Source: Salpingoeca rosetta
Taxonomy: Eukaryota; Protista; Choanoflagellata
Assembly (NCBI GenBank): GCA_033442325.1
Contig: JAWQFM010000012.1
Span: 1,328,991-1,392,990 of the forward strand
DNA: 64,000 bases
Reading direction: 5' to 3'
Part shown: positions 43,212 through 64,000 of the stretch, one piece after another
Position numbering within the stretch: position 1 is the first letter of the stretch
Layout of the letters: each line of letters opens with the position of its first letter
Notes under the pieces: model-generated
The model's database searches: none
What the model was told of the DNA's origin: nothing
Seen by the model: the letters and a program-made list of their open reading frames with translations, nothing else
Made by a program: the position numbers and the translations under genes

Positions 43212-43495
43212 TGCACAGGACGAGACCAAGTAAAAGTCACCTTATGCTACGTGTCGAACACACACTCAAGCATAGAAACACGCGCGCACGCAAACAAATG
43301 CTTGCGTCCCGCCAACAGCGGCAACGCCGTCGGTGTACACCCGGGGGTTGTTTCTAAGCTGTTAGTTCCCTGAATTAATCAAGGGCGACTAGACAAGGCC
43401 ATCGATAATTATCCGAACAATACCTCACAAGCACACGAAATTAATAAACCTGGCTGCACAAAAAACAAAAACACACACGAACACTTCTTCATCTT

Positions 43496-43850: not shown

Positions 43851-43860
43851 CTCCCCCGCA
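43851..43860 (-). promoter_or_regulatory. Polypurine tract
   Basis: Minus strand TGCGGGGGAG directly precedes TGTTG; the same 10-mer precedes the LTR at 50185. Confidence 0.8.
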
Positions 43861-44072
43861 TTGACCTACCTCTCTGCTGCGTTGATGTTCTGAAACGTGA
43901 TGAGCATGTGGATGATGTCATGCATGTAGGAATGGCATGGGCAGATGTAGGTGAGATGTGAGTAAGGACGTGTGTTGTGGAACACGTTTAAGAAAATGGT
44001 TGGTGCCTGTGGTGCGCAGCCTGTTGTGGAAGGCTGGCCCGAGTGAAGGCGTGTCCTGTGGTGCGCGGCCAC

Positions 44073-47000
44073 TCAGAGGTCCTGACGCGGAGTCGAAGGA
44101 CGTGGCGACCGGCCCGAATGAGGACGGGCCCGTGGCTGGCAGCCTGGCAGAGGACGCTGGTCGAACAGCATCGTGCAGAACTGAGCCGTCTTGGGCCGAG
44201 GGAGGATCTTCGTGAGGAGATCTGCGATCATGTGCTCCGTGGCGAGGTAGCTCAGCACAATCCTCTTGGTGTCGACGCACTCGCGGATGTAGTGGTACTT
44301 GACGAGGATGTGCCGCATGCGCGAGGCGGCGTGTTCGGCAACGCGCTGCGCCGGCTGGTTGTCCGTGTGGACGAGCGTGGGCTCGCACAGGACGGCGCCG
44401 GTGAGCTCCTCCTGGAGTTGGCGAAGGAACATGAGTTCCTGTGCGGTGGCTGCGAGAGCCATGTACTCCGCGTCGGCGGAGGCTGTGGCCACGGTGGCCT
44501 GCAGCTTGGAGTTCCAGGACACGGGGCCCGTGGAACAGAAGACGACGAAGCCCGTGCGGGAACGTCGCGTGTCAACGTCGGAGGCGAAGGACGCATCCGA
44601 GTACGCTGAGAGCACGCCGTCGGCAGTGCTGCCGTTGCTGGTGTCGCCAGTGGCGGCGTACTTGATGGTGTAGGACAAGGTGCCCTTGATGTAGCGAAGA
44701 AGGTGCTTGGCAGCCTTCCAGTGGTCCATGCCGAAGTGCTGCATACGGCGAGACAGGATGGAGACAGCCGCCGAGATGTCTGGGCGCGTCATCGTCGCAG
44801 CATAGAGGAGGGAGCCAAGCAGCTCGCGGAACGGCACGTCCGGGAGTGGCTCCTCCTTGTCGGCTGGCTTGTCGACGTAGCCCGTGCAGAGCGGCGTGCC
44901 GACAGGCTTGCAGTCAGCCATGCCGAAGGTCTCCAGCACGCTGCGCAGGTAGTGCTCCTGGCTCATGGTGACGGTCCTGGCCTTGCGGTCGTGCTGCACC
45001 TTGATGCCGAGACATATGTCTGGGCTGCCCAGGTCCTTCATCTTGAAGCGCTTGGAGATGGCCTTCTTGAACGCGGCCATGTCGCTGTCGCTGTCGGCGA
45101 AGATGAGCAGGTCGTCCACGTAGACGGCAACCCACATCATCTTGCCACCCTTGCAGGTGCGGCGGTAGATGCAGGCGTCCGTGGCTGTGGCGACGAAGTC
45201 CTGCTCGCGCATCCAGGCGTCCAGCGTGTGGTTCCACAGACGCGGGCTCTGCTTCAGGCCATACAGCCCGCGCTTGAGGCGCAGGACCGTATTCGGCGAG
45301 AAGATGCCGTCGACGGCCGGTGGCTGGACGTAGATCTCGTGATCCACGGGCGCGTTGAGGAACGCCGTGTTGACGTCCATCTGCTGGATGTCCATGCCAC
45401 GCGCGACGGCCATGGCGAGCATGGTGCGGATGGCTGCGATGGTAGCCGTCGGAGCAAAGGTGTCCGTGTAGTTGACACCGTGGACCTGGGAGTAGCCCTT
45501 GGCAACCCAGCGCGCCTTGTACTTAATCACCTTGCCCTGGCCATCGCGCTTCCTCCGAAAGATGACCATGCTGCGGAGCAGCTTGTGGCCCTTGGGAAGG
45601 TCAGCGCGAGGCACGACGTCATAGACGTCATTGGCCTGCATTGCCGCAAACTCGTCCAGGATGGCTTGGCGCCACTCCTCAGAGTCTGGCGAGGCAAGCG
45701 CCTCCTTGACGGTGGCTGGCTCAGCTGACGTGGCAAAACTGCCAGCAGCGATGTCTGATAGATGACCACCCACTGCTGATGTCTTCTCCCCCGTACCAGC
45801 AGCGCTGGTGGCAACGTGACACGTGGTGGTTGAGCCACCAGAGGTGTCCTTGTCGCCGAGGGTCTCGGACACCAGCAGCTGGTCCCAGACGGAGCCGCCA
45901 AGGGCGCGTGGCTGGAGCTGCGGCTCCCCCGCACGTGGTGCAGTGGGAGCGCCGGTGGCACTTTCCTCGGTTGAACGCTGAGCGGTCTTGTTGGCATGCG
46001 AAGCAGAGGCACCGCTGTTCTGCTCTTGCTGCTGCTGAGAGGAGGCGGCGTGCTTGTTCTTGATGGCGCCGAAGCGAGCGTGGATGGTGTGGACAACGCG
46101 TCGCGTGTCCGGCATCCAGACGACGTGGGCCTGGTCCTCCTCGGCGAAGCCGACGTAGACGCCAACGCGTGAGCGTGGGTCAAGCTTGTGCCGCGTGCTG
46201 CTCTTCTCCACATGCACGTAGGCCGGCGAGCCGAAGACGCGCAGCAGGCTGACGTCGAAGGGGTGCCCAGTCAGGGCCTCGAACGGTGACTTGTCCTTGA
46301 GGCTCCTGCGTGGCGCGACGTTGTGCAGCAGCGTGGCGTGCTGCACGGCGAAGCCCCAGAACGGCTTGTCCAGGTCCGCAGCAAACAGCATCGTACGCGC
46401 CGTCTCGAAGAGGGTGCGGAAGGTGCGCTCTGCGGATCCGTTCTTGGCCTGCGAGTGCGGTGGCGAGAAGCGCTGCTTGATGTCGAAGGCCAGGCACAGG
46501 TCGGTGAAGTCCTGGCTCTTGAAGACGGCGTCGCTGTCCGTCTGCAGCGTGGCGCCTCGGAGCGCGTTGACGACGTGGCGGTCCTTGCGCAGCTGCTCCA
46601 GGGCCGCGCCGACGTCGTTCTTGTGCCGGATGAGGAACGTCCAGGCGAAACGCGTGCAGTCGTCGATGAAGGTCAGCGCGTAGCGTGCACCTCGCAGCGA
46701 CGTCTCCTCCAGCGGACCGGCGATGTCGGCGTAGAGCAGCTGGCATGGCCCAGCGCTGCGTGGAGCAGACTGCTTTGGGATGGAGGCGCGCGTGCTCTTG
46801 CCAAGCGCACATGGTCCACAGGTGACGATGTGCTTGGAAGAGGCCTGGGCAATCTGCTGACGGATGGCGTCGACGGCCGCGCTGCTGCGATGGCCTAGCA
46901 CGTCGTGTGCGGAGGCGCCCTCGTCAGCATCCTCGGCTTCCCCATCGCTGCTGTGCACGAGCTCCCCCGTAAGCGCCGTGGCTTGTTGGGAGGTCGTGGT

Positions 47001-47077
47001 GCTGGCGTAGAGGAAGAGATGGCCGGTGTCCTTGGACGGCAGCAGAGGCACGCTCCATGTGGCAAACTGGATACGGC
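44073..47077 (-). CDS. Copia pol (integrase, reverse transcriptase, RNase H), 5'-truncated
   Basis: Open frame of ~1000 aa with HDVLGH..CGPC HHCC finger, YADIAGP / QTDSD / NGSAER integrase core, YKARWVAKGYSQ, QMDVNTAFLN, LYGLKQ, YVDD, YSDAS, TDNQ and IADLLTK. Confidence 0.95.
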
Positions 47078-47876
47078 TGTTGCAAGTTCATGGTGGTGGT
47101 GCTGTTGTTGGAGACTTGTGTGTGTGTGTGTGTGCAGAGTGTGCTGTGTGTTGTGTGGGAGATTGTCTTGGCAAGAGAGAGTTGTGTGTGTTTACTTGAG
47201 TTGTGAAGCAAACAAGGATGTAGGATGAATGAACACTCCAACAGAAAGAAACAGAGCACAAGACAAGAATTGTCGACAACGCAAAGTGGTGACGTGGCAG
47301 TGTTTGTTGAGAGTTGTGTGGTTATGTGGTGTGTTATGCAAGAACATGTAACATCGAGCAACCACACAAGCTAAACACTGCACGTGCAACAGGTTGGAGG
47401 GAAATCACGTGAACATTCCAGAACACAAGAGAGGTGAATGCAAATTTGTGGTGTCGTGAAGAAAGGAGGTCAATGATGACTCAGCAGACAGGACTTGCCT
47501 GTGCAGAGTGTGCTGTGTGTTGTGTGGGAGATTGTCTTGGCAAGAGAGAGTTGTGTGTGTTTACTTGAGTTGTGAAGCAAACAAGGATGTAGGATGAATG
47601 AACACTCCAACAGAAAGAAACAGAGCACAAGACAAGAATTGTCGACAACGCAAAGTGGTGACGTGGCAGTGTTTGTTGAGAGTTGTGTGGTTATGTGGTG
47701 TGTTATGCAAGAACATGTAACATCGAGCAACCACACAAGCTAAACACTGCACGTGCAACAGGTTGGAGGGAAATCACGTGAACATTCCAGAACACAAGAG
47801 AGGTGAATGCAAATTTGTGGTGTCGTGAAGAAAGGAGGTCAATGATGACTCAGCAGACAGGACTTGCCTGTCAACA
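47078..47876 (-). repeat. Copia LTR with internal 369-bp tandem duplication
   Basis: 47132-47500 is repeated at 47501-47869 (identical ORF translations are offset by 369). Ends are TGTTG/CAACA. Confidence 0.9.
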
Positions 47877-48305
47877 GCGGGGACCCGAAGCACCGTGGGT
47901 GCTTGGGCTCGGCGATGAGGCAGCTGCTGGAGCCTGCCCGTCTCCTTGGTGGTCAGCACCACCCTCGGCGATGATGCCAGCGTCGATGCCAGCGGCGATG
48001 AGCTTGGCCTCGACGGTGATGAAGAAGAGGTTGGCATCCTGCTCAGCGCTAGCGAAGACCTTGATGCCGTCGGCGCTAATTGAGCTGGGTCTCATAATCT
48101 GTTGCAAGTTCATGGTGGTTGTAACGTCGCTCGCCTGTCTCTCTCTGTCTCTCCCCTCTGCCTCTCCGACTCCCTTACCCACTGCACCTTGTCCCGCTGT
48201 GTTCCCCTGTTTCCCCCCTTCTCGCCCTTCGAGGCACCGTATTGCTCTGGATGTTCTTTGTTCTCCTAATGTTCTGATGTCATGTTTAGCCTGATTGACG
48301 TCATG
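47877..48305 (-). mobile_element. 5' end of a copia element: partial 5' LTR (48100-gap), PBS (48084-48099) and gag N-terminus
   Basis: Minus strand ...ATGAACTTGCAACA-GATTATGAGACCCAGC. The reading frame MNLQQIMRPSSISADGIKVF.. is interrupted at 47877 by an LTR. Confidence 0.75.
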
Positions 48306-48728
48306 NNNNNNNNNNNNNNNNNNNNNNNNNNNNNNNNNNNNNNNNNNNNNNNNNNNNNNNNNNNNNNNNNNNNNNNNNNNNNNNNNNNNNNNNNNNNNNN
48401 NNNNNCTGGCCACGGTACTGTCATCAACTAAGATGACGGCACGACACATGCCTGCATGCTGTGTTACGTCTGTTGCCCTTGTCTCTTGTTTTCCCCCTTG
48501 ATTAACCACAAGCACCCCTCTTGTTGCCTGCTAGCACGTGTGTGTTGCCCTGCACCCTGTTGTCGCTTATCTCACGTGATTGTCTGTGCCTTGTTCAGTT
48601 CTTTGTTCCCTGGTTTACTTCGCATCAGTACACAGAAACAAAGCCACCGACACACCTCCGACCACAGTCCCGTCACACTTGGTAGCGATTGTCACACACA
48701 CACACACGTACCACGGACAAGCAGCAAC

Positions 48729-49580
48729 ATGGAGGAACAGTGGCACGAGATGATTGAGCACATGCGTGTGCTTACACAGACCATGGCGCAAGCGGCACAA
48801 CTTAACCACGCTGTGCATGAGTCTCAGCAGGGACCACAAGGACCAACGCGATCTACCGGTCGACCACGCGGGCCACCACCGCCGACCTTCTCGGGTGCAA
48901 CGGACGAACGAGCTGACGACTTCCTGTTCTGCTTGGAAACCTTCGTCAGGTACCATCGCATCGACGACGACGACCAGCGCCTGCTACTTGCCATCTCCTG
49001 CCTGCAAGGGCACGCCCTCACCTGGTACCGCAGCCTCGATCCAGCTCCGACGAACATGCATGAGCTTCAGGAGCAACTCCGCGCGAGTTTCAAGACCATC
49101 GATGAGCAACGCCAACTGCGGGACCAACTTCGTCGACTGCGCCAAGACGGCAACGTGCAGGACTACGTCTTCAAGTTCCGACAGCTGATGGTGCAGATCG
49201 ACGACATGTCACGCCTGGACCGCATTGAAGCTTTCATCCACGGACTGCGGCCGCGCACCCGCCAGGAAGTCTCCTTCCACGGACCCGACACTCTGGAGCA
49301 GGCCTACCAGCTGGCCTCACGCTACGATCGCAACTACACCACGGCCAACTCATCCTACCGCCGTGGAGCGCCCCCGACGCAGCCACCTAAGTTCGACGAC
49401 CGCGCCATGGACATCGACGCCATCCGTGCCCAGCGCCCCCTCCGCCGACTGACTGACCAAGAGCGCGACGAGCTTCGGCGCCGTGGCGCATGCTTCCGTT
49501 GCCGACGCGAAGGCCACCTCGCCGCCGACTGTCCGCTGAACGCCAGCGACCGTCGGTCGGGAAACGGCACGCGCCAGTAG
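48729..49580 (+). CDS. gag: Gypsy Gag (capsid plus CCHC nucleocapsid)
   Basis: PPTFSG, LQGHALTWY, LRQDGNVQDYVFKF, FIHGL, AMDID and CFRCRREGHLAADC. Confidence 0.92.
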   Translation: MEEQWHEMIEHMRVLTQTMAQAAQLNHAVHESQQGPQGPTRSTGRPRGPPPPTFSGATDERADDFLFCLETFVRYHRIDDDDQRLLLAISCLQGHALTWYRSLDPAPTNMHELQEQLRASFKTIDEQRQLRDQLRRLRQDGNVQDYVFKFRQLMVQIDDMSRLDRIEAFIHGLRPRTRQEVSFHGPDTLEQAYQLASRYDRNYTTANSSYRRGAPPTQPPKFDDRAMDIDAIRAQRPLRRLTDQERDELRRRGACFRCRREGHLAADCPLNASDRRSGNGTRQ

Positions 49581-49613
49581 GGCCCGCCAGCCCTACTGGC
49601 GAGACGGAGGCGG
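49559..49613 (+). promoter_or_regulatory. -1 ribosomal frameshift signal (G GGA AAC plus H-type pseudoknot)
   Basis: Heptamer 49559-49565 in the gag frame, 6-nt spacer, perfect 12-bp stem 49572-49583/49590-49601; loop CCGCC pairs with GGCGG at 49609-49613. Confidence 0.85.
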
Positions 49614-49850
49614 TGTTGCTGCAAGCCACGGATGCAGTGACAATCACAAGCACGCCTCCTTACCCTTCCGTGGAACCATCGACGGCCGGCCGGCTAGGAC
49701 CCTCATCGACCCCGGAAGCAGAATGAACGTCCTGTCCCGAGACTACGCCCTTCGCCATGGAATCGCCCGTTCAACACGCCAGTACCCAGTGGAGTTTGTC
49801 TTCGCCAATGGAACCAGGCATGTCAGCAAGGACGACACGCAGGAAGTGAC

Positions 49851-49889
49851 TGTTGTAAGTTCATGGTGATGGTGCTGTTGTTGGAGACT

Positions 49890-49920
<31 letters not shown>

Positions 49921-50293
49921 AGTGTGCTGTGTGTTGTGTGGGAGATTGTCTTGGCAAGGGGAAGTTGTGTGTGTTTACTTGAGTTGTGAAGCAAACAAGG
50001 ATGTAGGATGAATGAACATGAACTGAGAGACACTCTCACACATAGACAGAAAACTGGAGGAGAGAGAGAAGTGCCACGTGGCAAAACAACCAGAAACGCC
50101 CGTTTCTGGGCGCACGTGCACAGAAACGTTTACAGCAGAATTTGCTGACTCAGCAAGCATTGACACTGGAACAGTGATGTCAACACTCCCCCGCAGTGGC
50201 GTGCTTGCTGGTGTCGAGTCCCTCCAGTGAAGAGCTGCTGTGTGCAGTACCCGTGAAGTCCTCCATCAGTGACCTGTGGTGACTTGCAGTGAC
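49851..50293 (-). mobile_element. Second copia-family 3' LTR (49851-50185) with PPT and short internal remnant
   Basis: TGTTG..CAACA ends, U5 half shared with the 47078 LTR, different U3, PPT at 50186-50195. Inserted in the gypsy protease. Confidence 0.8.
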
Positions 50294-50771: not shown

Positions 50772-51110
50772 NNNNNNNNNNNNNNNNNNNNNNNNNNNNN
50801 NNNNNNNNNNNNNNNNNNNNNNNNNNNNNNNNNNNNNNNNNNNNNNNNNNNNNNNNNNNNNNNNNNNNNNNCCGATGTGAATAAAAGTCATAATATAGAA
50901 ATGAAACCACAGTAGAGGGAGAGCGGAGGACAGACGAAAGCACAGCGAGTGGGGGGCTGAAGGTAGAGTAATTTACACATAAAAAAAAAAAACTTGGGTT
51001 GTGGGGGGGGGAACTCTCTCCCAGCGTGGCCACCATAAAAAAAAACAATAAAAAGGAAAATGAAAAAAACAAAGAAAGAGGAGAGGAACAAAAAATCCGA
51101 AAAGTAGTTG

Positions 51111-51223
51111 TAACCCTAACCCTAACCCTAACCCTAACCCTAACCCTAACCCTAACCCTAACCCTAACCCTAACCCTAACCCTAACCCTAACCCTAACCC
51201 TAACCCTAACCCTAACCCTAACC
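51111..51223 (+). repeat. Telomeric (CCCTAA)n tract, ~19 units
   Basis: Perfect TAACCC repeats; the C-rich strand on + is the orientation of a left chromosome end. Confidence 0.95.
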
Positions 51224-52527
51224 ACTACCCAATCTACCAATGCAACAACACACTCAACCTTGCTGTGCGTTCACTCTCTTTTGTATACAAGTCCTCCACA
51301 CGCCNNNNNNNNNNNNNNNNNNNNNNNNNNNNNNNNNNNNNNNNNNNNNNNNNNNNNNNNNNNNNNNNNNNNNNNNNNNNNNNNNNNNNNNNNNNNNNNN
51401 NNNNAACAGATCCTACGTGCTTACTCCAACCCAGTGTCCCGCACCGCTATATGCGCCGGAAACTCATACAAGGTGCATTATACAGCAGTTACTGCACACA
51501 TGCACTTTCAGCTTACACACACCGTTTCACCGTTACACTTGCTACTCACGTGATTCCTTTTGCACACGCACCCTACACAGCATGCTAGATGCAATGCAAA
51601 AGGAATTACATCCCTGCCGTACACCAGTCTCCCGTACAAAAGTCCACTCACCCACCCCCCAGGCTAGCACATGCCCAGCACCCACCCCCTACCACTACCC
51701 AATCTACCCCTCCAACAACACACTTAACCTTGCTGTGCGTTCACTCTCTTTTGTATACAAGTCCTCCACACGCCTCTGATCGTCTACAAACAGATCCTAC
51801 GTGCTTACTCCAAACCTGTCTCTCGCACCGCTATATGCGCCGGAAACTCATACAAGGTGCATTTCCTAGCATTTACTGCACACATGCACTTTCAGCTTAC
51901 ACACACCGTTTCACCGTTACACTTGCTAATCACGTGATTCCTTTTGCACACGTGCTCTACACAGCATGCTAGATGCAATGCAAAAGGAATTACATCCCTG
52001 CCGTACACCAGTCTCCCGTACAAAAGTCCACTCACCCACCCCCCAGGCTAGCACATGCCCAGCACCCACCCCCTACCACTACCCAATCTACCCCTCCAAC
52101 AACACACTTAACCTTGCTGTGCGTTCACTCTCTTTTGTATACAAGTCCTCCACACGCCTCTGATCGTCTACAAACAGATCCTACGTGCTTACTCCAACCC
52201 AGTGTCCCGCACCGCTATATGCGCCGGAAACTCATACAAGGTGCATTTCCTAGCATTTACTGCACACATGCACTTTCAGCTTACACACACCGTTTCACCG
52301 TTACACTTGCTAATCACGTGATTCCTTTTGCACACGCACCCTACACAGCATGCTAGATGCAATGCAAAAGGAATTACATCCCTGCCGTACACCAGTCTCC
52401 CGTACAAAAGTCCACTCACCCACCCCCCAGGCTAGCACATGCCCAGCACCCACCCCCTACCACTACCCAATCTACCAATGCAACAACACACTTAACCTTG
52501 CTGTGCGTTCACTCTCTTTTGTATACA
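51224..52527 (+). repeat. 384-bp subtelomeric tandem repeat (about 3 copies, with a gap)
   Basis: Near-identical sequence and ORF translations at 51589, 51973 and 52357. Confidence 0.93.
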
Positions 52528-55500
52528 GGTCGTCCACGGCATGCCTGATGTACTGCAAAAGAAACTCCGTTGCCTGGCCGTGTATGCTCCTTGTACGGTG
52601 CTTGTTTTCCGCACCTCGTTATTTTGCCTGCCGCGTTTTGCCAGTTGCATAAGCTGTGTCAAAATGCAACTGCATTGTACTTGACAATGTCACGGCAGTC
52701 GCAAATTGCGTGCAACTGACGCACAGCTCTCAAGGTTGTGGCGTACCAGCATTCCTGACGAGAATCGAAAGTTGCAGCATGGTATGAACAGCTTTCGTTT
52801 TCATTGGCAACAAGGCACGCACACACCATCACCGTGGCTATTTCACAAACACCGGCAGCACCACCGCCCATGACAACCCACAAGGGGCGAGCTTGACCCA
52901 GCTTTGCATCGACGAGCCCATCAGCGTGCGTCAGTCTGTCTACCTACATGTGTGCGTGTGTGTGTGTAAGTGTGTGCGCGTGTGTGTGTGCTGCTCTGTG
53001 TCTGCCTGTCTGTCTGTCTGTCTGCACGTGTGTCTGCACGTGTGCGTGTGTGTGTGTTGTGTAGCTCTTTATGTGTTTGCTTACCTATCCTTACTCCTGT
53101 TACTCTGTCGTTTTATCTGTGTCTCAGCTCGCCCACCTCCCTGTAGTTGTGTCTGCGCTTGTAACTGTGAGAAGCGTTGATGTCAGTACCCCTGCCAAGT
53201 TTCTTCAATCGTGCCTTTGGCGACATTGTTTTGCTTACCGCCACGCCGTGACGCCTCGGTCAACACATCAGGATGTTGATGGGAGCGGGCTCGCATGCCG
53301 GCTGCTGCAGCTGCAACTCCCCTGATTCGGCTGCCACCGCTGTGCTCATGCAGTGTTCACACATGTGAGCTAGGTGAGCCCACCATGAATGCTTTGGTCG
53401 GCACATGGTGCATGTGTTGGTGCTGTTGCTGCTCTGGGTGTGCTTGGTGTTGCTGCTGCTGTGCCTGGTGCAGCAGTGTAGCTGTGCAGCTCACATGCCA
53501 TGTGTGTGTGTGTGTGTGTGCAAGGGGGGCGACTGCCTGAGGATCGTTGGAGGATGATGGGCGGGTACACACGATAGATTGGGAGGAGAAGCTGTGGACA
53601 CACACGTCCATGGTCATGGTGGGCACATTCAACCACAGCGACGCAGCTATGCGCAGGTGTGTGTGTGTGTGTGTGCGGAGGGGGAAAGCAGAGGAGGGGG
53701 CAGGAAGGTAAACACGCCTGCTGTGCTCACATGCCATGCCTGTACCTTGTGTGTGATGATGTTGTCGTTGTGTCTTGTCGTTGTGTGATGGTTGCATGGG
53801 CACCAGGGCCACATCAGAGGAGGGGGAAGCAACCGCCATGAACGACACATCATCATCATCACCTTCCCCATTTTCCTGTCCTTTTTCGTTCTTCCACCTC
53901 AGCTCAGCTGTCACCACCGCCATCACCACGACCATCGACGGCACAACCGCCATCACACTCCGGCCGACACCAGCCACAATCTGGCGTGAGGCAGACAATG
54001 CACATGTCAGTCGCTCTGATAAAAGAGGTGAGCATGTGTGTGTGTGTGTGCATAGTGGTGGTGAGTGGGGACAACGTGTGTGCGTGTGGATGTGTGTCAA
54101 TGCGGATGGTTGGATGGGGATGGCGTGTGGTTGATGATGCTTCGCTATCAACCTAACCCCTGCATTCTCTCCCATCTTGTGTCTGTGCACACACAATTCA
54201 CAGCGTTGAGGAGGCGCATGAAGCGGTGGAACCAACGACGATGACGATGACGAGTGATGAAGGTGAGAGGGGCGACTGAGATGTGTGTGTGTGTTGGACA
54301 CGTTGTGTTGCCTTCTTTACCTCCCTCTTTCCTTGTCTGTTCTGTCCACTCATGTGTCTTTTCTTCTTCTTCTTCCCCCTTTTTCGATTGATTTGGACAC
54401 AGGACCACGAATCCGTCTTCATCCAACCGACCAAGCAAGCAGCCGAGCGAGCGAGCAAAGGACACGGCGTGGCAAGGGGCCGTTTGTTTTCACCGTTTCC
54501 ACCAGCACCAGCAACAGCAACAGCAGCTGCTGATGTGTGGCTGCATTGTGGATGAACTGGCCCTCCGTCTCTCGTCCATCTCCATCTTCTCCTCGTCATC
54601 GTCATCCTTGGGGTCACCAACAGCAGCGGCTGCGGCCATGGACGTGGAGGTGAGATGAATGGTGGTGGTGGTGGTGTGTGGTGTGCTGGGTGTGAACATC
54701 AGCATGTCGTATGTGTGTGTTTGTGAAGGGTTGGTTGGATGTCGTTGGGTCTGTTGGTGGTGGCAATGGGGTTTGTTGTCGTTGACAGCCTGATTCTGTG
54801 CCAACTCACCTCCTTCTCCACGCGCACACACACAGGGTGTGATGTGCGTCTATGTGCCGTTGCCTCGCATGACGACGCTGCTGGTGGTGGTGAGTGGTTT
54901 GTGGAGGATGTGGACGGCGCACGCACGCGCATGTGCAGTTGTGCTGCTTGTGCTGGTTGTGGTGTGTTGTCTGTGACATGTGCATGCACAGGTGGTGATA
55001 TGGGTGATGTGAATGTGGCAAAAGAGGTGGATGTGGTTTGTTTCTGCCATGCAGGCTCGCTGCGTGGTGTTCTTCTTGCTGATTTTGATTGTTTGTGCTT
55101 GCGCATGTGTACGTGTGTGTGATTTGCACAGGACGGTGGCCGATCTCTTCCCGGGCCCCCATGACACGACCAGGGCGATACACGCACACACACAACTGTG
55201 CGAGAAAAGAAGGCGCAAGGTGAGACGCTGCCGCTGTGTGCGTGTGCGGTGATGGGGTGGTAGTACACATTCACACGCACGTACACGCACGCACACACGC
55301 ACGTACACGCATGTACACATGCACGTGTGCCAACACACCAGAGCAGTCATTGGCTGTGGGGTGGTTGCACTGACGTGTGTCTCACATGAATCAATCTCAC
55401 AACTCAAATGTGTGTGTGTGTGTGCGTGACTGCAGGCGGGCGTGTGTGGGGTTTCCCCAACCGAATCCCTTCCTTCTTTTCCCAACCAATCGCCTTTGCC

Positions 55501-58500
55501 CTGTGTCATCATCATCATCATCATCGTCAGCCTTCCCCATGTGATGTGGAGCTGTTGAGGCGTGATCGAGACAACAGCCAACAGCAGGTATTGCAGCAGT
55601 GGTGGATGTGGTGTGGTGTGCTTGCTTGCTTGATTGTTGGGTGCTTGCTTCGTTGTTCTCGTGTGTAGGTGATGCACCCGCCCACAACATGCTGCATATT
55701 CCCATGCGTGGTCCTTTGTGTCCCTCCTTTCCTGTCCTCACCACCACCGATCGTTGCTTGTCTCTGGTTGGTTTCTTCTTGCCTCACAGGCACGCACGCA
55801 GGGCAAGCTCGCTGCTGCTGGTGGCTGCTGCTGTGATGATGGCCGTGCGTGTGCATGCGCGCTGTGCACCGTGTTTGGGGCTGCACCGATGACGACAAGC
55901 AAGGACACGGCCCGTGCCCACCACTCTTCCCCCTTCATCTCCTCTTTCTGCTCCATCAGCGGTGACGATGGTGGCCGTGGCATGTGGTTGCGCTTCCATT
56001 TTCTGGCTTTCGCTGTAGCACATCGGCTGCCTGCCTGGCTGCATCAAGCACATGTGAGGATGATCGTTGGCGGTTGGTTGGTTAGTTGGTGGGCTGGGTT
56101 GTATGGAGTGGTGGGAAGCAGGGGGGAAGTAACACGGTGATGGTGGTGCAACGTGGGAGTGCGAAGCGAAAGGAGGGAGAGGGAGAGGGAAGTGATAAAA
56201 GGGCGATGATGTTGGTTGGGGGATGGGGGTGCGCTTACACATGCACGTGAAATCGTCTGGTGGTAATATCACATGACAATGACACATATATCAGTGGCTC
56301 ATTCCTTTTGCTTGCACCTGTGATTGTGTGATTGTGATGATGACTGCAGCAGGCAACACACGGCGGTGATGCTGGATTGGATTGGCTGGGGTTGACTGGC
56401 CGTCGTGTCGTGTCGCCCATTTCTCTCCCTCCCTCCGTTGCTCATCTCAACTGGGGACACACACAGCGATGTGTGCTTGTGTGCACGTGTGCGTGTGCGT
56501 CGCCATCAACCACGCCGACAGCAACACGATGCACGAGGTGAGGCACGCAATGCTGTGTGTTTGGTGGAAGGGGGTTGAGGGGAAGTGGGAGGAAGGCGTT
56601 CACCATGGCCATCATCACCACCACGGCTGTGCACCTGGTCATGTGACCGTGCATTTGGGGGGATGGAGATGAGGGAGAGATGTTGCTGTTGTCGTTGCGG
56701 TGGTTGTGGTGGTTGTGGTGGTTGCGTGTGCATGGTGCACCGTCTCATTCTGCAATGCCATGTGTGACTGTGTGTGTGTGTGTGACTGCAGGTGTGCGTG
56801 CGCGTGTGCCAGGCAGATGCGTTGATCGACGACGACGAGGTGTGTGTGGTTGACCTTTGTGTGCTTGTGCCATCACAACTACGCACAACCAACCACGTCA
56901 TCATCATTGCACCCCATGTGTTGTTATTGTCCACTCATGCATGGCATGCTCACATCCACCGCCCTCCCCTTGCTTCTTCCTCTCCTGCTGCTGCCACCCC
57001 TTCCACTGTTTCCCTCCAACTCTCTTTACACACACACACAGAGGAACCCATCCACATCCAACACCCATGCCCACATCCACGCGTGCCATGCCATGGCGAG
57101 CTGTGCCACCTCAACCAACCCAACTCATCCCAGGCCAAGGAAGAGGAAGGAGGAGGGAAGCAAGGACAGAAGACGTGGGGCTCCCAACGGATGTGTGTGT
57201 GCGTGTGTGTTGATGGACGGTGTTCTCCTTCCCCTCTCCATCGCCTCGCCTCGCCTCTTTCTTCCATGGCGATCTGGCTGGATGGCTGCTGCCTTGTTTG
57301 TTTTCTCTTCCAGCCCTTTGTGTGGCTGTTGGTTGTCTGTTGTGATTGTGAGAAGGAGGAGGAAGCGAAGAAGAGAGAAGAGAGGAGAGGGAGGGTGTGT
57401 GTGTGTGTTTGTTTCTTCTTCTTTTCCATCCCCCTTTCTTCTCCCCTTCTTCTCCTCAGCCTGCAAGGCCTGTGAGCCTGCGTTGCATTCACACACACAG
57501 TGCTGTTCCCCCTTCTTCTCCTTCTCCTTCTTCTTGTCTCATTGAAACCAACCAACCAACCAACCAGCAAAGCAAGCAAGTCCGCCCTTCCATAAGCAAA
57601 CGCAGAAAGCAAGCAGCAGTTGCCGCACAAACGCAGCGGTGGGCGATTATTTGTCGCACCTTCCACAAATTACCGTCCCAAGCACCATCACGACACCTGA
57701 CAACGCAAACAACAAGCAGCAGGCGAACGCGAACCAAGGTGCGTGTGTGCGTGTGTGTGTTTGAGGCTTGCGTTGTTCGTGTGCGTGGCTGGCGCAAGGT
57801 TGGTGGAGAGAAGGGAGAGGGTGCGCGTTGTTACGGGCACTCACTGGCGGTTCTGTTGTGGGTGGTCTCGTTTGGTTCCGTGGACTGTGTGGGGTGTGGT
57901 GGGTGATGGTGTGATGGTGCATAGGTGCCAGCAGAGAACACGCACAGCACCGCGCACACCATGGATGTGTGCAGGGCCAAAGGCATGCAAGGTGTTGCCC
58001 ACGGTCAGTGAGGCTGACATATGTGCTGCACAGGTCCATGGCACGCTGGCACCGTGAGTTTGGGGGAGTTCTGTCGATTGGATTGACCGCTGTGTTGGTG
58101 CGTGTGGGTTGTGTGTGAAGCAGGGAGAGGTGGGACGTGGCTGCGTTGGGTGTTGTGATCTCACACGCACTCCCTGCTGCTGTGGATGCATTTGGCTCAC
58201 ACGCATACAGAGAAGGATAATGGGTTGCATCGACTCACACACACACAGACGCACACGCTGGCAGGCAGTCTGATGCCACCTCACGGTGCGTTGCACTTGC
58301 ATGTGTACATGACTGTGACTGTGTGCATGTCGTTCATGCTGTGTCTGCTTGTGATTCACACTGTGTGTGTGTGTGGTGGTTGCTTGCTTCCCTCTGTCTT
58401 ACACACCTGTGTGTGTATGGATGGTGACACGCACAGACAGACAGACAGTGAGTGGGTGTGCAGACACACATGCCCACACAGGCCAGGCAGGCAAGGCAGG

Positions 58501-59771
58501 GCACTCTTCTTTTTCTCTCTCTGCTGCCACCACCACCGCTGCTGCATGGATGGATTAGCGGATGCAAGGCGTGTTGAATGATGCTGGCTGGCTGATGTCC
58601 TTCCCTTGGTGCGTGTGTGTGTGTGTGTGTTGCAGCACTGCTGCTGTTGTTTCCCCTTGTTCGTGTCTGTTGTGTTTGTTGTGCGTTGCTGCTTCTCTGT
58701 GCTTGTGTGTGTGTGTGTGTGTCTGTTCACCACAGCCACGTCGTGTGCTCCCATCACCATCGTCTGTGCTCACGCACCTCCCCATCTCTCCCCTGCTTCT
58801 TCTTCTGCTCCCTTCCCTCTTCGTCATCCCCTCACACGCACATGCACACACACACACATGGACTCATGGATGCTTGTGCAGGCTGTGTGTTGGAACACAT
58901 GGCAAAGCACACACAACCAAGCAAGCACACGAGCAAGAATGGACACAGGACAAGCAAGCAAGACGTGGGGCTGCCATAGACCACGCACCTCGTTGGAGAA
59001 GGAGGGGAGCGTGAGCGGGTGATGTTGCATTGTGTATGTGTGTTGTGTTGTTGTTGTTGTTGTTGACAGTGTGCACGTCTCTCTCCTTGTGTCCTTCTGC
59101 CTTCCTCCCTTTCCCTTTCCCTTTCTCTCTCTCTGTTCTCTCTTGCCACAGCATGCACACTGCTGTTGCTGTTGTTGTTGGCTGCTGGTGGTGGTGGATG
59201 TGAACTGGGCTGATGGTGAAAAAGGTTGATGGGTTTATTATGTGCTGGAACACATGCAGCATGAAACATGGACGAGGCAGGAAAGATAAGGAAAGCAAAG
59301 GGAAGGTGGAAGGTAGGGAAAGAAGTGGCGGCACAAAGTAGTGAATAGAGACAACGGAAGGCATGCGAGCGCATGGAAACAACAACAGTGGTGGTGACAA
59401 GAATTGAAACAAGACAGGAGGGGTGGTGGAGCGCAGGTGAAATAGACAAACACGGCTTGTGATAACAAGGTGGTGAAAGAAAAGGACGAAGGGATGCACG
59501 ATCGCACACGGTGGGTTGTATGTGTTCCTGTGTTCTGTGAAGGATGCGTGATGTTGTGCGGAGGGGTGCTGTTTGGTGGTGAGTGGATGGAAGAGAGGAA
59601 GAGACAAGGGTGAACGAAGCATGTGGCGACAAGTGCAAAGCAACAATGCAACACATGGAATGTGGAAAGGCAAAGGGAAGAGAGGAGGAAGCGAGCGAGT
59701 GAAGGGTGAGACAAAGGCACAAAGCGGCATATGCACAGATGTGTGTGTGTGTGTTTTGTGTTGTGATTGTG

Positions 59772-59984
59772 GCGGGAGAGACAAGTGGCAGCAGACAAAC
59801 AAGTCTTATAGTCACAGGCGTCGAGAAAGTAATGAACAGGGACAAGGGAAGACGAAGGGACGCAACAGTCTGCTTCTGTGCGTGGTTGTGTATGAACGAG
59901 TGCGGGAGAGACAAGTGGCAGCAGACAAACAAGCCTTATAGTCACAGGCGGCGAGAAAGTAATGAACATGGATAAGGGAAGACG
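59772..59984 (+). repeat. Local direct duplication (~80 bp, period 130)
   Basis: GCGGGAGAGACAAGTGGCAGCAGACAAACAAG.. at 59772 and 59902. Confidence 0.8.
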
Positions 59985-60856
59985 GATGCAAGGATGTGTG
60001 TATGTGCATTCATGCGTTTATGCTCCTGTGGGCATTGCTGCTGACAAGGTCACAGACCTGTGTGTGATCGGCGGGGTGGGTTGATAAGAGTGAGTGTGAA
60101 GGTGGGTGGTGATAGTGTGGACGACACAACAACGGCAACAACAGACGCACATCACAACCCACCACCATCACCACCACAAACAACCACCGCCATCCACAAC
60201 CACCACCACCACCATCACCATCATCCACAACAAGCCATCACCACCACCACCATCTCCATCACGATCACAACTCACCATCGTCGTCGTCGTTGCTCCAGAA
60301 ATGATAATTTTTCGGCCCTGAAAAATCGAGGCACCGAACGTCAGTGTCCCGACCACGTGCAGGTGATCGCGCCAAAAGGTGGGCGGCTGCTTCACTGCTG
60401 CTCTGCTTCTTGTGCGCTTGTTCCTTACTGTTTGCCTGCTCACTGCCTCATGGCGCGTGCCACCTGCTTGTCATATTGACTGGCAGGTCGCAGGACCTAG
60501 CTGTAGGACGTGATCCTATGTAAACTCCGGGCATCGCTCCATTCGGAAGGACCATCTGTTTTGCCCTCCCTGCATGCCTGTTGTCGCTTCTTACATGCTT
60601 GCAAGCACCTGCACGCCCTCTTCCTGCCCGCTATGCACCCTGCATGCCTCCACAGCATGCCCCTGTGTGAATTTCTGCTACTTGGTCGACCTGCAATGTT
60701 CTCTAATCGCCCCCACATGCCTTTCTTGGCCCCAGACCTCTGCTGTAGTCCAAATTAAACGCTCCTACACCCCATTTTCCCGTTCATATCGACATCCAGC
60801 ACACCCACAAGCACCCGCAAGTACTTCTAGCGGCACACAGCCACACGCTCTGCACA

Positions 60857-61699
60857 ATGGACGTCCAGGAAAACATCTTCCAGCAGCTGCAGCTACTGCA
60901 GCCACCACAGCCAGCACAGCCAGCACAGCCACCACAGCCGCCACAGCCGCCACAGCACGCCCAGCCGCCGCCTGTCCCTGAGCCACACCGGCTTGTTGCA
61001 GCGGTCTCCACCATCATCCCAGCGCCGTTCATCGGCCCTGTCCCCGACATTGCCGCCATGATGCACAAGTACCGTCTTCCTGATGATGCCCGCCCTCACA
61101 TCGACCCCGTGGCGGACCGTCACGAGGTGGGCGAGCTCTCCAGCCACGGGGCCGGAACATGGACCCCGCTGCGGACCGTTCCAGAGGACTCCTTCAACAT
61201 CGTCGAGGGCTGGCAGCGCACGCTGATCCTGAACCTTGGACTGTGTGCGCAAATTCGCGAGGACTTCTTCACAAGTGCAGGCCGCTACCTCTACAGCATC
61301 ACCCACATCGTCAGGCGCACCCCCGATGGCCATCCCATGCGTGGAATGGGGTCTGGCCAGTGCCAGTTCCGTCGCCTGCACCGAACCTCACACATCAACC
61401 GAGGCCTCTACGAGCGCGAGCTGCGCAGCGTTGATCGTCGCCCCAACTACCACGCCTCTCACCTCTGCCACCGCGGTGTCGACAACCCCCTCATCTTTGT
61501 TTGCCCTCGCACTAACAAGCAGTTTGAGCTGCCATGCATCAACCCCGCACACCACGTGCTGGAACCAGGCCACTACAACTCGTCCCGCATCGGCTGCCCC
61601 GGCCCTCTGCTTGGATGCGAACACATCCCGCCATGTCTGAGACATGCCAACCCACCAGACACGGTATCATTTTACCGTGCGTACGAGTTTGACGTGTGA
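60857..61699 (+). CDS. His-Cys box (I-PpoI-like, His-Me finger) endonuclease, intronless, free-standing
   Basis: ASHLCH ... CINPAH..LE...N..R..CPGPLLGCEHIPPCLR follows I-PpoI (ASHLCH..CHNPLH..WE...N..R..CPGPNGGCVHAVVCLR) with identical C-x6-C-x-H-x3-C spacing. Confidence 0.85.
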   Translation: MDVQENIFQQLQLLQPPQPAQPAQPPQPPQPPQHAQPPPVPEPHRLVAAVSTIIPAPFIGPVPDIAAMMHKYRLPDDARPHIDPVADRHEVGELSSHGAGTWTPLRTVPEDSFNIVEGWQRTLILNLGLCAQIREDFFTSAGRYLYSITHIVRRTPDGHPMRGMGSGQCQFRRLHRTSHINRGLYERELRSVDRRPNYHASHLCHRGVDNPLIFVCPRTNKQFELPCINPAHHVLEPGHYNSSRIGCPGPLLGCEHIPPCLRHANPPDTVSFYRAYEFDV

Positions 61700-61705
61700 T
61701 ACTCC

Positions 61706-61818
61706 CCACCACCACCATCACCACCACCCCCACCATCACCACCACCACCATCACCACCACCACCACCATCACCACCATCACCACCATCACCTCCATCACC
61801 TCCATCACCTCCATCACC
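61706..61818 (+). repeat. (ACC/ATC)n trinucleotide repeat 3' of the nuclease ORF
   Basis: Direct inspection. Confidence 0.85.
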
Positions 61819-62172
61819 TGCTTCGGTTCCACCACTGAGTTGGTTTTTTTTTCTGATGCGATTTTTTGCGCCTGTTTTGCCTGTGTCTCTGCCTGGTTTT
61901 CCCTTGTGTCTACACTGTCAGCAACGATGGCAGTTCGGCCAAATTTTTGGCAGTTTTTGTCCTTGTGCTTAACTCCATAGAACTCTCGCTCCCTGCTTGT
62001 TCCCCTCTGTCAACTCCCATGGCGTGCGCATATTGGGTGGTGTGTTTACTCGTTCCTCTTGAATACACACAAGATCAAGTGAAGCATGACAGGCAGCCAC
62101 AAGGGATAGAGGGAAGGAAAACGAGTGGAAATGACATGGCAACACATGGCAAGAACAGGCACACACTCAGCA

Positions 62173-62621
62173 TCACAGCAGCTCCCTCTGGCTGCCCTCC
62201 TGGTTCTCTTCTTCTTCGTCATCCGCAGCACCATCGTCGCCATCATTCGCAGCTTCCTCGCCTGCTTCCTGTGCGCCATCTCCTCCACCATCGCTGTTGT
62301 TGTCGGCTACTACGTCCGGAGATGCAGGCGCTGTTGGTGCGAAGGGTTGCGTCGGGATTCCCAGCTCCTGGTATATGTGATCGCCGATATGTTGCCTGCA
62401 GAGATGAATGTTGGCATTGCACTTACAGTAGTACGATGTCCGCCGTCCACACACCTTGCAACTACCTTGTCGCCGCGCCTGACCTCTATCTTCACCCACC
62501 CCGTGCCTTCAACCCACTTGACGTAGCCAGGGATGGGAAGCAGTTCGTGCGGGCACTTGCTGCGTGCCTCGACGGACAACACAACCCGAGTCCCAATCCT
62601 TGCGTCTTCGATGCTCGTCAT
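62173..62621 (-). pseudogene. Frameshifted Cys-rich ORF resembling a piggyBac-type transposase C-terminal domain, with acidic tail
   Basis: One frame reads HELLPIPGYVKW..GWVK; a shifted frame continues RQGSCKVCGRRTSYYCKCNANIHLCRQHIGDH. No DDD catalytic region is visible. Confidence 0.45.
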
Positions 62622-62711
62622 CCTTCTTCGTCAGGAATTTGAACTGCGTTTCGAATTTCCCGCGGAACGTGCACCTTGCCCAAGGATGCAAAATTGCAAG
62701 AAATAAGCAGC

Positions 62712-63514
62712 TGCTCAAATGAGTGGCTCAAATGAGTGGCTGCTCAAATGAGTGGCTGCTCAAATGAGCAGATGCTCAAATGAGTGGCTGCTCAAATGAG
62801 TGGCTGCTCAAATGAGTGGCTGCTCAAATGAGTGCCCGCTCAAAGGAGTGGCTGCTCAAATGAGTGGCTGCTCAAATGAGTGGCTGCTCAAATGAGCAAA
62901 TGCTCAAATGAGTGCCTGCTCAAATGAGTGCCTGCTCAAATGAGCAGATGCTCAAATGAGTGGCTGCTCAAATGAGCAAATGCAAAAATGAGTACCTGCT
63001 CAAATGAGTGGATGCTCAAATGAGTGCCTGCTCAAATGAGCAGATGCTCAAATGAGCAGATGCTCAAATGAGCAAAATTGCATAAAGTAATCAAATGCTC
63101 AAATGAGCAGATGCTCAAATGAGTGGCTGCTCAAATGAGTGGCTGCTCAAATGAGTGGCTGCTCAAATGAGTGGCTGCTCAAATGAGTGGCTGCTCAAAT
63201 GAGTGCCTGCTCAAATGAGCAAACGCTCAAATGAGTGGCTGCTCAAATGAGTGGCTGCTCAAATGAGTGGCTGCTCAAATGAGTGCGTGCTCAAATGAGC
63301 AAACGCTCAAATGAGTGCCTGCTCAAATGAGCAGATGCTCAAATGAGCAGATGCTCAAATGAGTGCCTTCTCAAATGAGCAAACGCTCAAATGAGCAGAT
63401 GCTCAAATGAGTAAATACGTCAAAATATCCTGCTGCTCAAATGAGCAAGATTGCACAAAATAATCCACTGCTCAAATGAGCAAACGCTCAAAATACCCCC
63501 CTGCTCAAATGAGC
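62712..63514 (+). repeat. Tandem array of 16-bp units with palindromic core (T)GCTCA-AA-TGAG(C/T), about 45 copies
   Basis: Almost invariant GCTCAAATGAG plus a variable 5-nt linker (TGGCT, CAGAT, TGCCT, CAAAC); period 16, e.g. 63129, 63145, 63161, 63177. Confidence 0.95.
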
Positions 63515-63801
63515 CAGGGCTACATCAATTAAGCTCTCTTCTCATACACCGCTACACAACAACCTCCACCAATTCACTATAGAAACACCTGACCCACACA
63601 CTCCCACACCCATTCCCCGACAGCACTTCATACACACACATTCACACTACACCAACCCTGCAAAAGACCCTCTTTGCCTCACATGAAAAAAGAAAAAAAA
63701 ACATCCCCCCTTATTGAAAATGAGAACGCTGGCATGCCCCCTTGTTTCAAATGAGGGTGCCAGCATTCCCCCGTACCGCTACCGCAACGCCAACATATCC
63801 T

Positions 63802-64000
63802 CACATAAGCCGTCAATTCCCACATGAGCCGTCAATTCCCACATGAGCCGTTCCCCACCGTGTATGCGATGTGTGTAATGACATGAGCCGTCAATTTCCA
63901 CAGTGTATGGTAGCAATACAATAACACCCACCCCTCCACGGATCCCACTATCAAAAAGAAACAACAGCATCTTCACAGTGTATGGTAGCAATACAATAAC
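63802..64000 (+). repeat. Short direct repeats: 19-bp CACATGAGCCGTCAATTCC units and a 27-bp CACAGTGTATGGTAGCAATACAATAAC repeat
   Basis: 3-4 copies of the 19-mer at 63802-63900; the 27-mer at ~63899 and ~63974, running off the window. Confidence 0.8.

What the first reader, a model, noticed from the sequence alone, without database searches (positions are those of the whole stretch)
60857..61699. Free-standing His-Cys box endonuclease with intact catalytic set and a loop insertion
Residues equivalent to the I-PpoI general base His (SHLCH, ~61460), the metal-binding Asn (HYNSSR) and the C-terminal Zn ligands are present. There is no rRNA or group I intron context. The 3-residue linker between HLCH and CxNPxH is expanded to ~21 aa with an extra Cys, and there is a PQ-repeat N-terminus. 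It could be an active nuclease with a new target or a domesticated DNA-binding protein.
Basis: partly seen in the sequence, partly recalled or inferred. Interest (0 to 1): 0.75.

Follow-up and report, generated by a model that had tools for sequence, protein, structure and literature searches.

The report
Escaped intron nuclease gene near telomere
An intact, intron-less gene near a telomere repeat in what is likely a choanoflagellate genome encodes a predicted I-PpoI-type DNA-cutting enzyme; one close relative sits inside a self-splicing-type intron of a ribosomal RNA gene, so this gene likely escaped from such an intron and would now cut a different, untested target.

Summary
The gene is real: a 280-codon ORF (60857-61699, +). 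A model built from 55 relatives (pLDDT 84) matches I-PpoI best (Z 8.9-9.2). His202 (general base), Asn241 (metal) and seven of eight zinc ligands are kept; the eighth is probably His150 instead of Cys. Arg61, His78, Arg74 and Asn123 equivalents are changed. No rRNA lies in the window.

The 21-residue loop is not a sign of domestication. It is a predicted beta-hairpin shared by nine related proteins, one encoded inside a group I-type intron of a eukaryotic LSU rRNA gene, one base from the I-PpoI site. The 'extra Cys' is unique to this protein.

A 35%-identical paralogue is a Salpingoeca rosetta gene with zero reads in 8 of 8 published RNA-seq conditions, so the window is probably S. rosetta. 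The gene lies about 9.6 kb from a (TAACCC)19 tract, between a multicopy block and a 16-bp satellite.

Best reading (0.5): an escaped homing-endonuclease lineage, probably still a nuclease with a changed target and kept by selfish spread. Activity, target and carrier are untested. Free-standing His-Cys genes have precedents (KolobokP, Naegleria rDNA plasmids). New variant of a known kind; interest 0.37.

The parts
60857..61699 (+). His-Cys box endonuclease-like ORF, 280 aa, intron-less
   Evidence: (PF05551 E 0.0025, 18.5 bits, under the cut-off of 27)
60899..60969 (+). 9-bp repeat x7.9 encoding the Pro/Gln low-complexity N-terminal stretch; not seen in the aligned relatives
61304..61306 (+). 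His150, invariant in the 9 insert-bearing proteins; inferred replacement of I-PpoI Cys41 as first zinc ligand
   Evidence: end of model strand 144-151; inference
61358..61387 (+). Predicted DNA-reading hairpin: Gln168 (Arg61), Gln170 (Gln63), Arg172 (Lys65), Thr177 (Arg74)
   Evidence: alignment inference; I-PpoI residues from PMC9587614 and PMC11325842
61457..61468 (+). SHLC: Ser201, general-base His202, zinc ligand Cys204
61472..61534 (+). 21-aa insertion (residues 206-226), predicted beta-hairpin; marks a 9-member subfamily
61535..61636 (+). Cys227, His232, Glu236, metal-binding Asn241, Ile245 (Asn123 position), Cys247/Cys254/His256/Cys260
51111..51223 (+). Context: (TAACCC) x18.8 telomere-type tract, about 240 bases after an assembly gap
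51405..52537 (+). Context: 384-bp tandem repeat x3 next to the telomere tract
53200..59900 (.). Context: multicopy, variant-rich block with GT..AG joints in contigs of runs guessed to be RNA; probably a shared subtelomeric repeat
   Evidence: PMC4054682 passage on shared subtelomeric regions; inference
62173..62621 (-). Context: convergent small reading frames in two frames, with a CxxC...CxC...HLC...H motif; weak lead to a transposase-type zinc finger relic
   Evidence: score 0.90-0.91; zf-Tnp_2 on 11% of one cluster; no Pfam hit at cut-off
62710..63514 (.). Context: 16-bp satellite, about 44 copies in 62710-63412 plus a degenerate tail; core GCTCA-AA-TGAG(C/T) is pseudo-palindromic

Best explanation
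The gene is a free-standing member of a hairpin-insert subfamily of His-Cys box endonucleases, likely descended from a homing endonuclease of an LSU rDNA group I intron, and it is predicted to be a zinc-stabilised, probably dimeric, site-specific DNase that likely persists by selfish spread rather than as a host factor. Shown: ORF, fold match, conserved residues, subfamily, an intron-borne relative, no rRNA in the window. Inferred mechanism, by analogy with I-PpoI: His202 activates water and Asn241 holds one Mg2+. Two zinc sites (His150/Cys204/Cys227/His232 and Cys247/Cys254/His256/Cys260) brace the fold. The beta-sheet around Gln170/Arg172 reads the major groove. Arg61 to Gln and Arg74 to Thr suggest the target has moved away from the rDNA site, which a host with intron-less rDNA would need in order to survive expression. 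The gene would be mostly silent in subtelomeric chromatin and copied rarely, by break-induced gene conversion or with an unidentified carrier.
For: Fold: model pLDDT 84.3, pTM 0.84 from 55 sequences. I-PpoI entries are the top 4 Foldseek rows. VIA Z 8.9, rmsd 4.2, 129 aligned, next row Z 2.8 among 48,161 chains; Z 8.9-9.2. Subfamily profile vs I-PpoI E 1.4e-8. Origin: relative P0014 (37-38% identical) is encoded antisense at positions 46-582 of a 1,334-nt insertion in a eukaryotic LSU rRNA gene; the 5' exon ends in U, the insertion ends in G, and P/Q/R/S-like motifs lie in order. The four loci found are one element (99.5%+ alike). With the insert columns removed, the nine insert proteins still form a branch at 100/99, and P0001/2/5/12/13 a sub-branch at 99/99 (19 of 78 rows used). 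Selection: 13 of 13 structural and catalytic positions are kept among P0001, P0002 and P0012 at 38-45% core identity. Selfish-type traits: a single exon; paralogue PTSG_01082 has an identical partial second copy PTSG_11476; both show 0 reads in 8 of 8 conditions, sense and antisense (PMC4054682 supplement file 10); repeat- and retrotransposon-rich setting beside a telomere tract, where H3K27me3 is reported high (PMC12572184).
Against: Asn123 is Asn in 68 of 69 proteins outside the subfamily and 6 of 9 inside, but Ile here; Lys120 is Ser, and no basic residue lies at Arg61 or the next position. Activity may therefore be weak or lost. The gene looks single-copy: one unbranched 1,607-nt contig at the depth of other unique contigs in run X7, so there is no sign of recent spread. 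No inverted repeat of 11 bp or more other than a poly-T/A pair was found in 59900-64000, and no transposase. Only one insert-subfamily member has known DNA context. The nesting of the long-N-terminus group among short members is not secured (holding the short members together is not rejected, p-AU 0.116). Intron-borne His-Cys enzymes can be 244-247 aa (PMC8395846), so a long N-terminus does not prove a free-standing life. The paralogues' zero counts could partly reflect discarded multi-mapping reads, and the second copy could be an assembly duplicate.
Confidence: 0.5

Rival explanations
1. Stranded relic: a homing gene copied out of an rDNA intron (host's own or a foreign protist's) into a subtelomere, now neutral and not yet decayed. 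Its conservation would date from life in the intron.
For: Looks single-copy; silent paralogues; substitutions at Asn123, Arg61, His78; a relative in an rDNA intron; contexts of P0002, P0005 and P0013 unknown (contigs of 1.1-3.0 kb).
Against: Two 35%-identical S. rosetta genes both have intact frames. Third-position GC of 0.72 is in the range of the window's other long ORFs tested (0.58-0.83). No intron remnant in the flanks. Ile/Gln at Asn123 and Thr at Arg74 are shared by P0001, P0002 and P0012, so they are lineage traits, not private decay.
Confidence: 0.22
2. Domesticated host protein: a stage-specific nuclease (for example meiotic, repair or telomeric), or a weakly catalytic DNA-binding factor, on the path that gave Smad MH1 from an I-PpoI-like ancestor.
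For: P0002 shares the N-terminal start motif and residues about 49-110 with this protein (44% identity). Changed reading and metal-shell residues. Precedents: Smad MH1 and yeast HO (PMC3384342 passages).
Against: Paralogues have no reads in 8 of 8 conditions. Only 11 hits at E<=0.001 among 1.84 billion representatives, and the only named organism among those looked up is S. rosetta. Catalytic His and Asn are kept. Smad5 MH1 scores only Z 2.6 against 9.2 for I-PpoI.
Confidence: 0.18
3. Cargo of a DNA transposon, as in KolobokP: the nuclease gene, the convergent zinc-finger relic and the 16-bp array would be the remains of one element.
For: KolobokP pairs a transposase with a convergent I-PpoI-like gene (PMC9587614). 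Here a convergent Cys/His frame with a weak zf-Tnp_2 lead and a palindromic array follow the gene.
Against: No DDE transposase, terminal inverted repeat, long direct repeat or TTAA-flanked ends in 59900-64000. Six short motifs from this region are absent from 12 supplement files of the S. rosetta TE survey. The window ends 2.3 kb after the gene, so the test is incomplete.
Confidence: 0.1

Closest known systems
[quoted passage not shown]
   Same: Fold (Z 8.9-9.2, 129 residues), Ser97/His98/Cys100/Cys105/His110/Glu114/Asn119/Arg122/Cys125/Cys132/His134/Cys138 equivalents, Gln63 and a basic residue at Lys65.
   Different: Not in an intron or in rDNA; 21-aa hairpin in place of the 3-aa linker; Cys41 probably His; Arg61 Gln, Arg74 Thr, His78 Asn, Asn123 Ile; about 105 extra N-terminal residues; below the Pfam cut-off.
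Unnamed hairpin-insert His-Cys box gene P0014 in an LSU rDNA group I-type intron (loci L001-L004)
   Same: 37-38% identity, the same insert (19 aa), His150, the Q-F-R reading motif, a C-terminal Phe motif.
   Different: 178 aa, antisense inside a 1,334-nt intron; keeps Arg74, Lys120 and Asn123 equivalents.
KolobokP His-Me finger nucleases (Kojima and Bao 2022, PMC9587614)
   Same: An I-PpoI-like gene that left group I introns for a chromosomal setting.
   Different: No DDE transposase, long terminal direct repeats or TIRs found in the window; KolobokP is reported only from animals. Whether KolobokP nucleases have the insert was not checked (alignment supplement not read).
PF05551 ORFs on Naegleria extrachromosomal rDNA plasmids (PMC12482156)
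   Same: PF05551 ORFs listed as separate plasmid ORFs.
   Different: Those sit on the rDNA plasmid; here no rRNA lies in the 64-kb window.
Smad MH1 domain (degraded His-Cys box endonuclease; PMC3384342)
   Same: Common ancestry with the I-PpoI fold.
   Different: MH1 lost catalysis; this protein keeps His98/Asn119 and matches MH1 only at Z 2.6.

Membership tests
His-Cys box (I-PpoI-like) endonuclease protein family | beta-beta-alpha-Me fold of I-PpoI | tested here: met
   I-PpoI top, Z 8.9-9.2, next Z 2.8
His-Cys box (I-PpoI-like) endonuclease protein family | Catalytic His98 and Asn119, plus Ser97, His110, Glu114 (PMC9587614) | tested here: met
   His202, Asn241, Ser201, His232, Glu236
His-Cys box (I-PpoI-like) endonuclease protein family | Eight Cys/His ligands forming two zinc sites | tested here: inconclusive
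   Seven align directly; the Cys41 position maps to His150 by spacing and secondary structure or to Cys130 by MAFFT; no coordinates were available to measure geometry
His-Cys box (I-PpoI-like) endonuclease protein family | Pfam PF05551 at gathering score | tested here: not met
   18.5 bits against 27; 7 of 7 other insert members scanned also fall short, including intron-borne P0014, so the insert splits the match
His-Cys box (I-PpoI-like) endonuclease protein family | Homodimer | tested here: inconclusive
   complex prediction gave no answer
His-Cys box (I-PpoI-like) endonuclease protein family | Mg2+-dependent site-specific double-strand cleavage | not testable with these tools
   needs biochemistry
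Group I intron homing endonuclease gene (rDNA) | Inserted in an SSU or LSU rRNA gene | tested here: not met
   no rRNA hit in the window, while the same model finds L003/L004 at over 1,600 bits
Group I intron homing endonuclease gene (rDNA) | Flanks form a group I ribozyme core | tested here: not met
   fuzzy Q-R-S scan with P7 pairing: control intron 1 hit, window 59500-63600 0 on both strands; the Rfam model is uninformative because it missed the control
KolobokP transposon | DDE transposase convergent with the nuclease gene | tested here: inconclusive
   none in the window; only a weak zinc-finger relic; the window ends 2.3 kb downstream
KolobokP transposon | 450- or 660-bp terminal direct repeats with short TIRs | tested here: not met
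   no such repeats around the gene within the window
Smad MH1 / domesticated non-catalytic His-Me finger | Loss of catalytic His/Asn | tested here: not met
   His202 and Asn241 present

The most novel reading that the evidence does not exclude
A homing endonuclease left the LSU rDNA intron, was retargeted, and now recognises the 14-bp pseudo-palindrome at the core of the 16-bp satellite 1 kb downstream (6-bp inverted arms around AA, the size of an I-PpoI site). It would drive break-induced unequal crossover and turnover of choanoflagellate subtelomeres: a nuclease-plus-own-satellite selfish module in the sister group of animals, and a living intermediate on the route from His-Cys box enzymes to host DNA-binding proteins such as Smad MH1.
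Probability: 0.07. Interest if true: 0.75.

Novelty: new variant of a known kind. Interest (0 to 1): 0.37.

Why it matters
Nuclear His-Cys box genes are described mainly from rDNA group I introns; escapes are known (KolobokP, Naegleria plasmids) but their sources are rarely traceable. Here one subfamily, marked by a hairpin insert and a probable His-for-Cys zinc ligand, holds both an intron-borne member at a known rDNA hotspot and free-standing chromosomal genes of a genetically tractable choanoflagellate. That gives a matched pair for testing how a homing enzyme is retargeted or tamed after escape. All eight members scanned here fall under the Pfam cut-off, so the subfamily is easily missed. 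The value is moderate: no activity, target or host role is shown, and free-standing His-Cys genes recur in other eukaryotes.

Tried and rejected
No whole genome is held for this window, so copy number and the paralogue's flanks could not be read. Single-sequence AlphaFold was useless (pLDDT 33). Homodimer plus zinc prediction gave 'no answer' (score 0.00, fold uncertain, alignment not used); not used as evidence. Sequencing runs: no holder on record as RNA. In three runs guessed to be RNA, the listed pieces on the ORF were a few 151-160-nt contigs at depth 2-4 (X17, X18), and none covered 61416-61700; contigs cannot show level or absence, so expression of this gene stays open. Viral contigs: no relative with alignments A2 or A3 (14 candidate stretches each, 0 confirmed) and no match to the satellite pattern. 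Prokaryote genome contigs: 19 candidates, 0 confirmed (searches did not run). BFVD: no match at E<=0.001. Rfam group I model: missed the control intron. No I-PpoI site and no similarity to the L004 intron in the window. Extra Cys216 as a metal ligand: rejected, 1 of 9. P0007, P0008 and P0011 were dropped as unrelated repeat proteins (P0008 and P0011 read; P0007 judged by its 12 short stretches); P0006 was dropped as a partial copy of P0012; P0072 lacked the anchor motif. Literature: 'choanoflagellate + homing endonuclease + His-Cys' 0 papers; 'PF05551' 3 papers; 'zf-His_Me_endon' 1; 'His-Cys box + homing endonuclease + L1926' 1; searches listed no report on this subfamily by title or abstract start. 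PMC2602781 passages gave nothing on the residues sought. Earlier-findings look-ups by sequence and by place were empty.

Full report
OBSERVATION. The ORF is as described: 60857-61699 on +, 280 aa, one exon. No shuffle of 100 gave an ATG ORF this long in 52600-64000. His202 of SHLCH is at 61460, Asn241 at 61577, and the C-terminal Cys/His set at 61595-61636. Run X7, probably DNA, covers the ORF with one 1,607-nt contig and one synonymous difference at 61333, so the frame is not an assembly artefact.

WHAT THE PROTEIN IS. Alone it scores weakly: PF05551 at E 0.0025, under the cut-off, and I-PpoI at E 0.003. The ESM Atlas's top clusters are PF05551 at 0.93-0.94. A search of 1.84 billion representatives gave 11 hits, the best P0002 at 44%. 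A profile of six close relatives hits I-PpoI at E 1.4e-8 and collected 74 proteins. A model of residues 61-280 from 55 sequences has pLDDT 84.3 and pTM 0.84. I-PpoI is the best structural match: top four Foldseek rows (E 3e-3 to 3.7e-2), and Z 8.9 over 129 residues, rmsd 4.2, with the next chain at Z 2.8 (Z 8.9-9.2). The alignment used for the model holds I-PpoI-like proteins, so the model is not fully independent of the sequence result.

RESIDUES. Against the I-PpoI sequence shown, the protein keeps Ser97, His98, Cys100, Cys105, His110, Glu114, Asn119, Arg122, Cys125, Cys132, His134 and Cys138. These include the defining residues named in PMC9587614 (read: parts 1-4 of 6 of the main text) and PMC8395846 (passages). 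The Cys41 position maps to His150 by spacing (20 residues before Gln170, as Cys41 is 22 before Gln63) and by its place at the end of the second strand. His150 is invariant in the nine insert proteins. MAFFT instead puts Cys130 there, but Cys130 is missing in P0002 and P0012. So a His-for-Cys first zinc site is inferred, not shown. Changed positions: Arg61 to Gln168, Arg74 to Thr177, His78 to Asn181, Lys120 to Ser242, Asn123 to Ile245. Asn123 is Asn in 68 of 69 proteins outside the subfamily. His78Ala is near wild type in I-PpoI, and Arg61 binds the product phosphate (PMC11325842, passages). I found no data on Asn123. Gln63 and Lys65 equivalents (Gln170, Arg172) are kept. PMC9587614 prints the fourth specificity residue as '74 T'; the PDB sequence has Arg74, which I use.

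THE LOOP. The linker is 3 aa in 55 of 65 matched proteins, 12 in one, and 19-23 in nine (83 examined). The model folds it as a two-strand hairpin. The nine form one branch (100/99) even with the insert columns removed (19 rows; 78-row quick tree). Cys216 occurs in only one of the nine. The insert is therefore an ancestral trait of a subfamily and not a mark of this gene's fate.

WHERE THE SUBFAMILY COMES FROM. The one scan of metagenomes gave 4 confirmed loci out of 86 candidate stretches, all one element. It is a eukaryotic LSU rRNA gene (2,595 bits) with a 1,334-nt insertion: the 5' exon ends in U, the insertion ends in G, P/Q/R/S-like motifs lie in order, and the gene P0014 lies antisense near its 5' end. 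The site is one base from the I-PpoI intron site; the label L1926 rests on recalled numbering (the site name appears in PMC8395846). So at least one short member is a normal intron-borne homing gene. P0001, P0002, P0012, P0005 and P0013 form a longer-branched sub-group (99/99). Their nesting among the short members is the best tree but is not secured (p-AU 0.116 for the alternative).

HOST AND SETTING. P0012 is S. rosetta PTSG_01082 on a 2.48-Mb contig, 34-35% identical; P0006 (PTSG_11476, partial, 4.5-kb contig) is an exact prefix of it. With the GT-repeat introns and the copia and Ty3 elements in the window, this makes S. rosetta the likely host (inference). Both paralogues have zero sense and antisense counts in 8 of 8 conditions in supplement file 10 of PMC4054682 (one further file not searched), a paper stating that 98% of genes have transcript support. 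Multi-mapping may contribute to the zeros. The window has no rRNA and no group I core near the gene. From left to right: nested LTR elements, an assembly gap, (TAACCC)19 at 51111, a 384-bp tandem repeat, a multicopy variant-rich block at about 53.2-59.9 kb with GT..AG joints, the gene on an unbranched contig at the depth of other unique contigs, a convergent zinc-finger relic, and a 16-bp satellite. This reads as a chromosome end joined into a scaffold, with the gene about 9.6 kb inside. S. rosetta subtelomeres share repeated regions (PMC4054682, passage) and carry high H3K27me3 (PMC12572184, passage). No terminal repeats or transposase were found, and the window stops 2.3 kb after the gene.

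HOW IT MOST LIKELY WORKS. Shown: fold class, conserved catalytic pair, subfamily, intron-borne relative, non-rDNA setting. Inferred: a two-zinc, probably dimeric enzyme in which His202 activates water and Asn241 binds Mg2+, reading a pseudo-palindrome of about 14 bp with the Gln170/Arg172 sheet. The loss of both arginine readers, with Thr at Arg74 shared by P0001, P0002, P0012 and P0005, suggests a target other than the rDNA site. Retention of 13 of 13 key positions among three proteins at 38-45% identity points to selection (0.38^13 is about 3 in a million; a rough figure, since Cys and His change slowly). Single-exon structure, silent paralogues and a repeat-rich home fit a selfish gene better than a housekeeping one. 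I give this 0.5, a stranded relic 0.22, domestication 0.18, and transposon cargo 0.10. The main weakness is that no spread, carrier or activity is shown, and the Asn123 and Arg61 changes may impair catalysis.

COMPARISON AND NOVELTY. It works like I-PpoI and belongs to the His-Cys box protein family, with the zinc-1 and dimer tests inconclusive and the Pfam cut-off not met. It is not a group I intron homing gene and does not meet the KolobokP repeat test. Escape from introns has precedents: KolobokP (PMC9587614), PF05551 ORFs on Naegleria rDNA plasmids (PMC12482156, passage), and Smad MH1 (PMC3384342, passages). The Atlas clusters from Ascomycota and Rotifera and earlier unchecked notes of this scan on fungi suggest free-standing copies are not rare. 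What I did not find in print is the hairpin-insert subfamily or a choanoflagellate case. The KolobokP alignment supplements were not read and could bear on whether the insert is known. PMC5714182 (passages) lists group 12 as 62 eukaryotic sequences, labelled fungi. Verdict: new variant of a known kind, interest 0.37.

Noticed in passing
window 50773-52537: Assembly gap, then (TAACCC) x19 and a 384-bp tandem repeat x3 inside the scaffold: probably a chromosome end joined internally, or an interstitial telomere.
   Followed up: partly
window 53200-59900: Multicopy, variant-rich block; contigs of runs guessed to be RNA show GT..AG joints (54260-54441, 56535-56811, 58285-58445). A heuristic exon scan gave no recognisable protein. 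Possibly an uncharacterised subtelomeric gene or lncRNA family.
   Followed up: partly
window 60384-60773: A 417-nt contig of run X19 matches 390 bases just upstream of the gene with no difference and carries 27 extra 5' letters not found in the window. Chimera, adapter or upstream transcript; unexplained.
   Followed up: partly
window 62710-63514: 16-bp satellite with a pseudo-palindromic core and a higher-order period of about 384 bp (82% alike), the same length as the unit next to the telomere tract; 19-bp and 27-bp repeats follow at 63802-64000.
   Followed up: partly
window 62173-62621 (-): Two-frame relic with a CxxC/CxC/HLC/H zinc finger resembling a piggyBac-type C-terminal domain (recalled resemblance; Atlas lead only). 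The S. rosetta TE survey's main text has no mention of piggyBac.
   Followed up: partly
window 43474-50000: Copia-type element (RVT_2, rve at 44073-47051, -) with 369-bp repeats, two in tandem at 47131-47871, next to a Ty3 gag (48729-49580) whose pol is interrupted at about 49860 by another LTR-like copy: nested retrotransposons.
   Followed up: no
L004:1308-2641 (-): Group I-type intron with an antisense homing gene and a short tandem repeat in the core, in a divergent eukaryotic LSU rRNA gene; Rfam's group I model does not detect it.
   Followed up: partly
P0005, P0013: Two insert-subfamily proteins of 466 and 497 aa with a shared long N-terminal region (73% core identity), lacking the Q-F-R reading motif but keeping His98, Asn119 and Asn123 equivalents; host and context unknown; candidates for domestication.
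   Followed up: no
window 59772-59984: 83-bp direct repeat (95% alike) at the right edge of the multicopy block.
   Followed up: no
window 16324-16411: tRNA gene (Rfam).
   Followed up: no
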